64,000 nucleotides of DNA from Octopus vulgaris (taxonomy: Eukaryota): NCBI GenBank assembly GCA_951406725.2, contig OX597818.1, positions 82,584,001 through 82,648,000 of the forward strand, given 5' to 3'. Shown one piece after another: positions 58,246-58,297 of this stretch. The stretch's first letter is position 1. Each line of letters opens with the position of its first letter. Below the pieces are notes generated by a model. That model made no database searches. It was given only the letters and a program-made list of their open reading frames with translations, and had not been told where the DNA came from. The position numbers were made by a program, and so were the translations under genes.

Positions 58246-58297
58246 ACCACACACGGACCATGGTTTCAAGGTGTATTGCCTATCATCGGCGTGTGGT
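58246..58297 (-). ncRNA. Type I hammerhead ribozyme motif (U4C variant), copy 1
   Basis: Minus strand ACCACACG-CCGATGA-T-AGG(CAATACA)CCT-T-GAAA-CCATGG-TC-CGTGTGTGGT, with a palindromic stem III and GUC triplet. Confidence 0.75.

What the first reader, a model, noticed from the sequence alone, without database searches (positions are those of the whole stretch)
58246..58297. Non-canonical hammerhead: CCGAUGA core, U-U at the base of stem II, palindromic stem III suggesting dimer cleavage
Seen: the core reads C-C-G-A-U-G-A instead of CUGAUGA in all three copies. Positions 10.1/11.1 are U/U instead of G-C. Stem III is the palindrome ACCAUGGU. Stem I is 6 bp and extends past an internal loop into GAAGCGGA/UCCGCUUC. 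Known: minimal type I hammerheads with palindromic stem III, as in newt satellite 2 and PLEs, cleave best as double hammerheads. Inference: this variant is active mainly in multimeric transcripts, which would release unit-length monomers.
Basis: partly seen in the sequence, partly recalled or inferred. Interest (0 to 1): 0.7.

Follow-up and report, generated by a model that had tools for sequence, protein, structure and literature searches.

The report
Weakened paired hammerheads in Penelope-type repeat
This is a hammerhead-ribozyme-shaped RNA motif with two off-consensus core letters, carried by a young 360-base repeat present in over a thousand copies; its sister versions keep the key base pairs through paired changes, so it likely cuts RNA weakly and mainly as pairs, an unusual version of a known kind of animal jumping RNA.

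Summary
The motif is real (minus strand, C3 at 58289). It sits in a 359-360 bp unit with 1,471 genomic copies of the motif. Only copy 1 of the window's three is intact; copy 2 lacks an A of GAAA, copy 3 has a stem II mismatch. Subfamilies form a ladder, U3-A8, U3·G8, C3-G8 with C4; none of 1,471 has canonical C3U4. The 3-8 pair, stem I and the loop III palindrome (CUAG/CAUG) all covary. A two-unit RNA favours the double hammerhead over two single ones by 18 kcal/mol. Arrays show Penelope insertion marks: inverted arms, two fixed 3' ends about 44 nt apart, (TA)n targets. C4 plus U·U also marks an unrelated, intact Penelope-like element (1,153 motif copies). Each oddity has precedent: U4C in a viroid, U·U with dimer cleavage in axolotl retrozyme Amex2. 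Cleavage was not measured, and CUGA mutants were low-activity in a published scan. Verdict: new variant of the non-LTR retrozyme kind; dimer reading supported by covariation, not shown.

The parts
58034..58556 (-). Left (inverted) arm of the array, about 1.46 units; 3' end at unit position +255 (relative to C3), 5'-truncated at the junction
58556..59304 (+). Right arm, about 2.1 units of 357-359 bp; 3' end at unit position +211
58250..58295 (-). Hammerhead-type motif copy 1, intact: stem I 6 bp, core CCGAUGA 58289-58283, U10.1 58282, stem II 58281-58269, U11.1 58268, GAAA 58267-58264, C17 58256
58257..58264 (-). Palindrome ACCAUGGU (A15.1 to U16.1); predicted 8-bp inter-copy stem III
58255..58256 (-). 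Predicted cleavage site, 3' of GUC (not measured)
   Evidence: sequence plus hammerhead numbering; inference
58232..58313 (-). Extended stem I: UAC/U internal loop, GGCC/GGUU helix, GAAGCGGA/UCCGCUUC helix
58730..58774 (+). Motif copy 2 (C3 58736); one A of GAAA missing
59087..59132 (+). Motif copy 3 (C3 59093); C>A in stem II gives a G·A mismatch
58340..58346 (-). TATATAA box 30 nt upstream of a possible transcription start at 58316 (27 nt before C3); same in copies 2 and 3. Hint only
58034..58077 (-). 'Tail': the about 44 nt by which the two 3' ends of the insertion differ
   Evidence: PLE tail described in PMC11167929 and bioRxiv 2021.04.23.441226
58007..58034 (.). (TA)n flank, left
59302..59332 (.). 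(TA)n flank, right

Best explanation
The motif is the hammerhead-fold element of a young 360-bp non-coding repeat, likely copied by a Penelope-like retrotransposon's enzymes, and it likely cuts RNA slowly and mainly when two tandem copies pair through their palindromes. Shown: anatomy, copy number, subfamily ladder, covariation, insertion marks. Steps: (1) a unit is transcribed on the hammerhead strand, possibly from a TATA box inside the unit (hint, one contig). (2) In a transcript of two or more units the palindromes form an 8-bp stem III and stems I exchange partners, giving a double hammerhead (predicted by folding; supported by covariation). (3) Cleavage after GUC releases a 359-nt monomer that a host ligase closes into a circle (inferred by analogy to mussel and axolotl retrozymes). 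(4) U4C, U·U, the weak monomer stem III and a competing GCC/GGC hairpin keep activity low, so monomers and circles last (inferred). (5) A Penelope-type RT-endonuclease nicks (TA)n and starts reverse transcription at two fixed internal sites, +211 and +251-255, running round the unit (footprints shown; enzyme not identified).
For: Covariation: 227 of 228 cells paired, 4 of 19 pairs changed on both sides, 0 of 500 shuffles reach 99.6% (related sequences inflate this control). 3-8 pair: C-G 83, U·G 9, U-A 8 of the first 100 of 1,471 listed (my tally); A8 goes with U3 in 96 of the first 100 of 109. Stem I C-G > U·G > U-A. Palindrome CUAG/CAUG. Two-unit folding, window-type haplotype: double hammerhead -157.8, two monomer hammerheads -140.0, MFE -162.6 kcal/mol; two other subfamilies similar. 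Unit as a circle z = -5.9 on the hammerhead strand, -2.4 on the other. 82 of 86 3' ends at two sites, 79 of 86 abut (TA)n; 65 of 86 arrays inverted. Arrays of up to 22 near-identical units, with array-private variants shared by all copies and, in L174, L185 and L105, both arms. C4 is the majority state in distant homologous families (34 of 55 hits, control 13), where T4 behaves as CpG decay. C4 with U·U is in 98 and 100 of the first 100 of 1,153 motifs of an intact RT + GIY-YIG element. Precedents: PMC3088659, PMC7229834.
Against: No cleavage data. In a pairwise scan of a type III hammerhead every single and double mutant of the CUGA region was low-activity except the C-G swap (PMC9901934); U4C 'considerably decreases activity in vitro' (PMC3088659); U4C plus U·U together was not found tested. 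A PLE hammerhead from Anolis needed the PLE protein to cut, and cutting was not needed for insertion in vitro (PMC11167929). 5' ends are not enriched at the cut. Substitution density in the motif is no lower than in flanks. The covariations are few events on one lineage. In the window type the double hammerhead is still 4.8 kcal/mol above the MFE. Homogeneous arrays could also come from uncut transcripts of homogeneous source arrays. The one autonomous PLE tested shares no detectable sequence with the unit.
Confidence: 0.65

Rival explanations
1. The CC subfamilies have a dead or nearly dead ribozyme. The fold is kept as a handle for the reverse transcriptase or by inertia, and arrays are copied from uncut multimeric transcripts.
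For: CUGA mutants low-activity (PMC9901934); HHR cutting dispensable for PLE insertion in vitro (PMC11167929); Naiad PLEs spread without canonical hammerheads; no 5'-end pile-up at the cut; CC arrays are longer (mean 5.0 and 2.6 versus 1.7 and 1.5 motifs), as uncut templates would give; CC creates a hairpin that competes with stem II.
Against: The same branch that gave C4 restored a Watson-Crick 3-8 pair. G5, A6, A9, G12-A15.1, U16.1 and C17 show no subfamily-level change. C4 is the master state in old homologous families and in an unrelated intact PLE, which decay alone would not produce. Array length is confounded with age.
Confidence: 0.15
2. The ribozyme is protein-gated: it cuts only when a Penelope-type protein binds and shifts the RNA out of its alternative hairpin, and C4 and U·U are tolerated because the protein supplies the missing stability.
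For: The Anolis PLE hammerhead cut only with protein (PMC11167929); minimal PLE hammerheads were weak in vitro (PMC4209133); C4 plus U·U is shared with an autonomous PLE in this genome; the monomer fold is 6-9 kcal/mol away from the hammerhead.
Against: Coral, mussel and axolotl retrozyme hammerheads cut protein-free (PMC7229834). No partner protein identified. A family with canonical CUGAUGA and U·U exists in the same genome (29 of 29), so the two traits are not obligately linked.
Confidence: 0.12
3. It is adequately active as a monomer through loop 1-loop 2 contacts, and the palindrome is incidental.
For: Extended stem I with a conserved small internal loop and invariant loop 2; axolotl Amex2 gave 22% cleavage as a monomer (PMC7229834).
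Against: Monomer stem III is 2 bp and costs +2.9 kcal/mol; the monomer prefers another fold. A double change inside a 4-nt loop that keeps self-complementarity has no purpose in a monomer.
Confidence: 0.08

Closest known systems
Axolotl non-LTR retrozyme Rtz_353 with HHR_Amex2 (Cervera & De la Peña 2020, PMC7229834; parts 2-4 of 6 read, supplement unreadable)
   Same: About 350-bp tandem unit, type I fold, U·U at the base of helix II, 2-bp helix III with tetraloop, far better cleavage as a dimer.
   Different: The text read gives no U4C or C3U for Amex2; here no copy has C3U4. Inverted arms, tail and (TA)n targets were not described in the parts read. Cleavage and circles were measured there, not here.
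Natural core variants U4C, U10.1·U11.1 and U3-A8 (Perreault et al. 2011, PMC3088659; section 8 and passages read; U4C work of Ambrós & Flores 1998 seen only as cited)
   Same: All three departures seen in this family are listed as natural variants; U·U is the best-tolerated mismatch; U4C lowers activity but allows viroid infectivity.
   Different: There they are rare and described singly; here U4C plus U·U is fixed in about 1,200 copies, and U3·G8 is an amplified intermediate state.
PLE hammerheads and insertions (Cervera & De la Peña 2014, PMC4209133; Frangieh et al. 2024, PMC11167929; Craig et al. 2021, PMC8557442)
   Same: Palindromic helix III, dimer design, U3-A8 in about 1,300 Schistosoma motifs; tandem and inverted 5'-truncated insertions, 30-40 bp tail from two RT starts, (TA)n targets.
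   Different: PLE minimal motifs keep G10.1-C11.1 and have short stem I; this unit encodes no protein.
Non-LTR retrozymes as PLE derivatives (Li et al. 2026, bioRxiv 10.64898/2026.07.22.740005; part 1 of 5 and passages read)
   Same: Proposes PLE origin and mobilisation of tandem hammerhead repeats.
   Different: Argues from co-occurrence and pLTR phylogeny; the word 'tail' does not occur in its text. Here the link is an insertion footprint; pLTR homology was not found for the one PLE tested.

Membership tests
Type I hammerhead, consensus (Rfam RF00163; core as defined in PMC3088659) | Three helices round the core, open stem I | tested here: met
   (copy 1)
Type I hammerhead, consensus | U4 in CUGANGA | tested here: not met
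   C4 in the window; 0 of 1,471 have C3 with a non-C at 4. Not filed as a consensus member; treated as a core variant that works like one.
Type I hammerhead, consensus | Paired 10.1-11.1 (usually G-C) | tested here: not met
   U·U; U10.1 in 100 of the first 100 listed
Type I hammerhead, consensus | 3-8 tertiary pair; G5, A6, A9, G12, A13, A14, A15.1-U16.1, H17 | tested here: met
   copy 2 lacks one A
Type I hammerhead, consensus | Rfam gathering score | tested here: not met
   absent from the 59 RF00163 genome matches listed (73 candidates scored)
Type I hammerhead, consensus | Loop 1-loop 2 tertiary contact | tested here: inconclusive
   Small internal loop and loop 2 unchanged across subfamilies; no 3D test
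Type I hammerhead, consensus | Self-cleavage 3' of H17 | not testable with these tools
   3 of 149 arm 5' ends start 1 nt after the predicted cut; too weak
Non-LTR retrozyme | 150-450 bp tandem units, each with a type I hammerhead motif | tested here: met
   355-360 bp units, arrays to 22; motif is a core variant
Non-LTR retrozyme | No coding capacity | tested here: met
   The unit is 359 bp; of ORFs >=200 aa in the loci scanned only one (L128/L129, antisense-like, not analysed) overlaps a unit
Non-LTR retrozyme | Highly self-paired predicted circle | tested here: met
   z -5.9 and -6.1 on the hammerhead strand, 30 shuffles each
Non-LTR retrozyme | Expressed as linear and circular monomers | tested here: inconclusive
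   Only contigs; the 'goes back 359' joint is also in DNA-type runs; one adapter-capped contig
PLE-mobilised element | Tandem and inverted 5'-truncated arms, tail, microsatellite target | tested here: met
PLE-mobilised element | Sequence homology to the pLTR of an autonomous PLE | tested here: not met
   One PLE family tested, no nhmmer hit below E 3; other PLE families not tested

The most novel reading that the evidence does not exclude
Penelope-type elements in this genome select for deliberately weak, possibly protein-gated hammerheads. Every master lineage of this retrozyme carries a damper at position 3 or 4 plus a mismatch at 10.1·11.1, an unrelated autonomous PLE carries the same C4 + U·U core, and ribozyme strength sets how long RNA circles last and how long the inserted arrays are. 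The six subfamilies would then be a natural, ordered allelic series for testing how catalytic rate tunes retrotransposition.
Probability: 0.2. Interest if true: 0.72.

Novelty: new variant of a known kind. Interest (0 to 1): 0.5.

Why it matters
Two questions are open for these elements: whether the hammerheads of Penelope-type elements and animal retrozymes matter for copying, and what keeps them from cutting their own circles. This family gives an ordered series of natural cores in one sequence background (U3-A8, U3·G8, C3-G8 with C4), evolutionary evidence for the double hammerhead, and insertion footprints that tie a retrozyme to Penelope enzymes. It also shows that Rfam misses two of the genome's large, young hammerhead families. 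Without an assay it remains an unusual member of a described kind.

Tried and rejected
Rfam scans found no hammerhead here. 'C4 is a decay mutation of this locus': rejected, 788 exact copies. 'C4 is a new invention of the youngest subfamily': weakened, C4 is the majority in distant homologues; my earlier view that those homologues were canonical came from a pattern that demanded CTGATGA. 'C4 compensates U·U': not supported, a family with CUGAUGA and U·U exists and U3U4 subfamilies carry U·U. Alternative stem II register (bulged U, A-U pair): 2.3 kcal/mol worse. Private-mutation rates per region were dropped because loci were chosen by a hammerhead pattern. Junction counts were dropped (an internal hairpin broke parsing; 20 of 46 and 28 of 45 rows usable) and replaced. 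The L125 dimer energy was dropped because a C·A pair was forced. Outgroup rooting is weak (support 61 and 53, stem 0.85 substitutions per site); direction rests mainly on within-subfamily divergence. A third hammerhead family has mixed C/T at position 4 (CT 48, CC 21, TT 4, TC 2 of 75) and did not sort cleanly on a tree. The look-up of sequencing runs: no RNA holder listed; the wrap-around joint is in DNA-type runs too, so it is no evidence of circles. The search of earlier findings returned nothing. Literature searches for U4C + hammerhead, CCGAUGA-type cores, Octopus/cephalopod + hammerhead/retrozyme and Neptune + hammerhead found no report of this family or of U4C with U·U. The library lacks most subscription papers; the Cervera 2020 supplement could not be read; Ambrós & Flores 1998, Ruffner 1990 and a 2017 paper on PLE hammerhead variants cleaving as dimers (Lünse et al., recalled) were not seen and may bear on novelty.

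Full report
What is there. The window is G000:C5:82584001-82648000 of a 2.8-Gb, microsatellite-rich genome. By recall of size and repeats it looks like an octopus; no call establishes that. The finding lies on the minus strand: stem I CACACG/CGUGUG, core CCGAUGA (C3 = 58289), U·U, stem II AGG/CCU, GAAA, palindrome ACCAUGGU, C17. It belongs to an array of a 357-360 bp unit: an inverted arm 58034-58556 and a direct arm 58556-59304, both ending in (TA)n. All three motifs have CCGAUGA and U/U, but copy 2 lacks an A of GAAA and copy 3 has a stem II mismatch. A relaxed descriptor finds copy 1 and one unrelated motif in the window and nothing in 60 shuffles. Rfam misses it.

The family. The exact 46-mer occurs 788 times. 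With the eight core positions left free the count is 1,471, control 0; copies with changes in the fixed flanks are not counted. My tally of the first 100 listed: CCGATGA 47, CCGACGA 36, TTGATGA 7, TTGACGA 2, TTGATAA 8, all with T at 10.1. C3 with anything but C at 4, which includes the canonical core, occurs 0 times. A non-G at 8 occurs 109 times; of the first 100, 96 have U3 and 4 (three loci) have C3. A tree of 62 distinct units (from 90 near-full units out of 112 motifs) is a ladder: TTGATAA/CTAG (within-group distance 4.1%), TTGATGA/CTAG (1.3%), TTGATGA/CATG (0.6%), TTGACGA (2.9%, inflated by one junction-spanning copy), CCGACGA (1.4%), CCGATGA (0.36%, the window's type). The ends differ by 14%. 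An outgroup root falls near TTGATAA but with weak support.

Covariation. Along the ladder the tertiary 3-8 pair goes U-A, U·G, C-G. Loop III goes CUAG to CAUG, both palindromic; among 112 motifs one CUUG and one GUAG occur as single copies, and neither forms a subfamily. Stem I shows C-G, U·G, U-A at one pair in 40 old copies found by whole-unit similarity. A helix beyond a small UAC/U loop also covaries. On 12 chosen representatives 227 of 228 cells pair and 4 of 19 pairs change on both sides; 0 of 500 shuffles match the pairing, while 27 of 500 match the number of both-side pairs. These are a handful of events on one lineage, and I picked the rows. The motif is not more conserved than its flanks by rate (6 of 46 versus 51 of 284 sites), but the flanks are themselves structured (circle z about -6). 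Of the eight changed motif sites, seven are compensated or at free position 7; U4C is the exception.

Folding. The monomer prefers a non-hammerhead hairpin by 6-9 kcal/mol in all seven examples. The palindrome duplex is -11.2 (CAUG) or -11.4 (CUAG) kcal/mol against -6.3 and -4.7 for single changes. In a natural two-unit RNA the unconstrained fold already has the inter-unit stem III; the double hammerhead is -157.8, two monomer hammerheads -140.0, the MFE -162.6. For TTGATGA the double hammerhead equals the MFE; for the CC cores a GCC/GGC hairpin competes with stem II by 4.8 kcal/mol. So CC may damp activity in two ways (prediction).

How it spreads. Of 86 arm 3' ends, 44 lie at unit position +203 to +211, 38 at +251 to +255, 4 elsewhere; 79 abut (TA)n. 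65 of 86 arrays have inverted arms. This matches the PLE tail made by two internal RT starts (PMC11167929, passages) and PLE tandem/inverted insertions in (TA)n (bioRxiv 2021.04.23.441226 and PMC8557442, passages). 5' ends are spread over the unit: 7 of 149 within +28..+42, 6.2 expected; three start at +35, one base after the predicted cut, but other positions pile as high. Arrays are homogeneous, with private variants shared by all copies and sometimes both arms. That fits rolling-circle copying but does not prove it. Mean motifs per array, from listed places: 5.0 (CCGATGA, 20 arrays), 2.6 (CCGACGA, 14), 1.7 (TTGATGA/CATG, 19), 1.5 (TTGATAA, 63); CC versus TT p = 2e-6, confounded by age; CCGACGA versus TTGATGA/CATG alone p = 0.21.

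C4 and U·U elsewhere in the genome. Distant homologues of the unit (nhmmer E to 3e-8), mostly with A·A at 10.1/11.1, gave 55 hits (control 13): 31 CC, 18 CT, 3 TC, 3 TT. C and T interleave on their tree like decayed CpG, so their masters likely had C4. An intact element with RT and GIY-YIG domains and a CxxxxCxxC linker (Neptune/Nematis type by PMC8557442), 4,271 bp, has a hammerhead with CCGAAGA, U·U and palindrome AGUACU: 1,153 copies, 95 of the first 100 exact. It ends at two sites into (TA)n but shares no detectable sequence with the unit. A third family, present in the window at 34657, has canonical CUGA and U10.1 in 29 of 29, so C4 and U·U are not obligately linked.

Expression. No run is on record as RNA. 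Eight runs were laid, all contigs. One contig of run X3 (depth 10) carries, before the G 27 nt upstream of C3, letters matching the SMARTer template-switch oligo plus one untemplated G, which PMC9245221 treats as a cap tag (passages). That G lies 30 nt after the start of TATATAA. The tool warns that contigs cannot show RNA starts or strand, so this is a hint from one record.

Comparison. U4C (viroid), U10.1·U11.1 and U3-A8 are published natural variants (PMC3088659); a published search descriptor even writes the core CYGANGA (PMC13481778, passages). Axolotl HHR_Amex2 has U·U, a 2-bp helix III, 22% monomer cleavage and much better dimer cleavage (PMC7229834). Newt and viroid dimers are long known (PMC6155905, passages). 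Against activity: CUGA mutants were low in a pairwise scan (PMC9901934, passages), and the Anolis PLE hammerhead needed protein and was dispensable in vitro. The giant squid genome paper counts 235 Rfam hammerheads without detail (PMC6962438, passages).

Verdict. It works like a type I hammerhead of a non-LTR retrozyme; it fails the consensus at U4 and 10.1-11.1, so strict membership awaits an assay. Best reading, 0.65: a weakened double hammerhead. Dead relic 0.15, protein-gated 0.12, monomer-active 0.08. New variant of a known kind; interest 0.5, for the ordered natural allelic series and the Penelope footprints rather than for the odd letters themselves.

Noticed in passing
window 34651-34696 (+), inside an inverted-arm insertion between (TA)n runs at about 34406-34870: A second hammerhead-type motif: 6-bp stem I, canonical CUGAUGA, U·U at 10.1/11.1, near-palindromic stem III, A17; 29 exact-flank copies in the genome. 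Missed by Rfam.
   Followed up: partly
L214, L215, L216, L151 (G000:C1:27.84, 38.88, 6.15, 42.385 Mb): Young Penelope-like element, 4,271-bp tandem units, with an upstream ORF of about 450 codons (no Pfam match) overlapping the 775-codon RT-GIY-YIG frame, suggesting a frameshift; its hammerhead has C4 and U·U.
   Followed up: partly
L031-L045, L191-L203: Two old families homologous to the unit, mostly with A·A at 10.1/11.1 and palindrome ACCAUGGU; masters likely CCGAUGA.
   Followed up: partly
run X4 laid on L003:660-1018: Labelled 'DNA?' but with summed depth of 1e5-1e6 and no TT or C7 variant at 2% or more, unlike the genome's mix (17% and 38% of the first 100 listed). May be an RNA library dominated by the youngest subfamily; contig depth is no measure of expression.
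   Followed up: no
L177 (G000:C1:48.89 Mb): Units alternate between two haplotypes (period 2), as a dimeric template copied twice would give.
   Followed up: no
L187 (G000:C8:52.995 Mb): G8A in two of three adjacent CC copies, a C·A mismatch that did not spread.
   Followed up: no
L053-L070, L131-L150: Short-stem hammerhead family with G10.1-C11.1 and mixed C/T at position 4 (75 hits); L047-type relatives have a 70-nt loop 2.
   Followed up: partly
L046 (G000:C5:6546758-6546804, -): Best Rfam RF00163 match in the genome (45.5 bits), canonical core.
   Followed up: no
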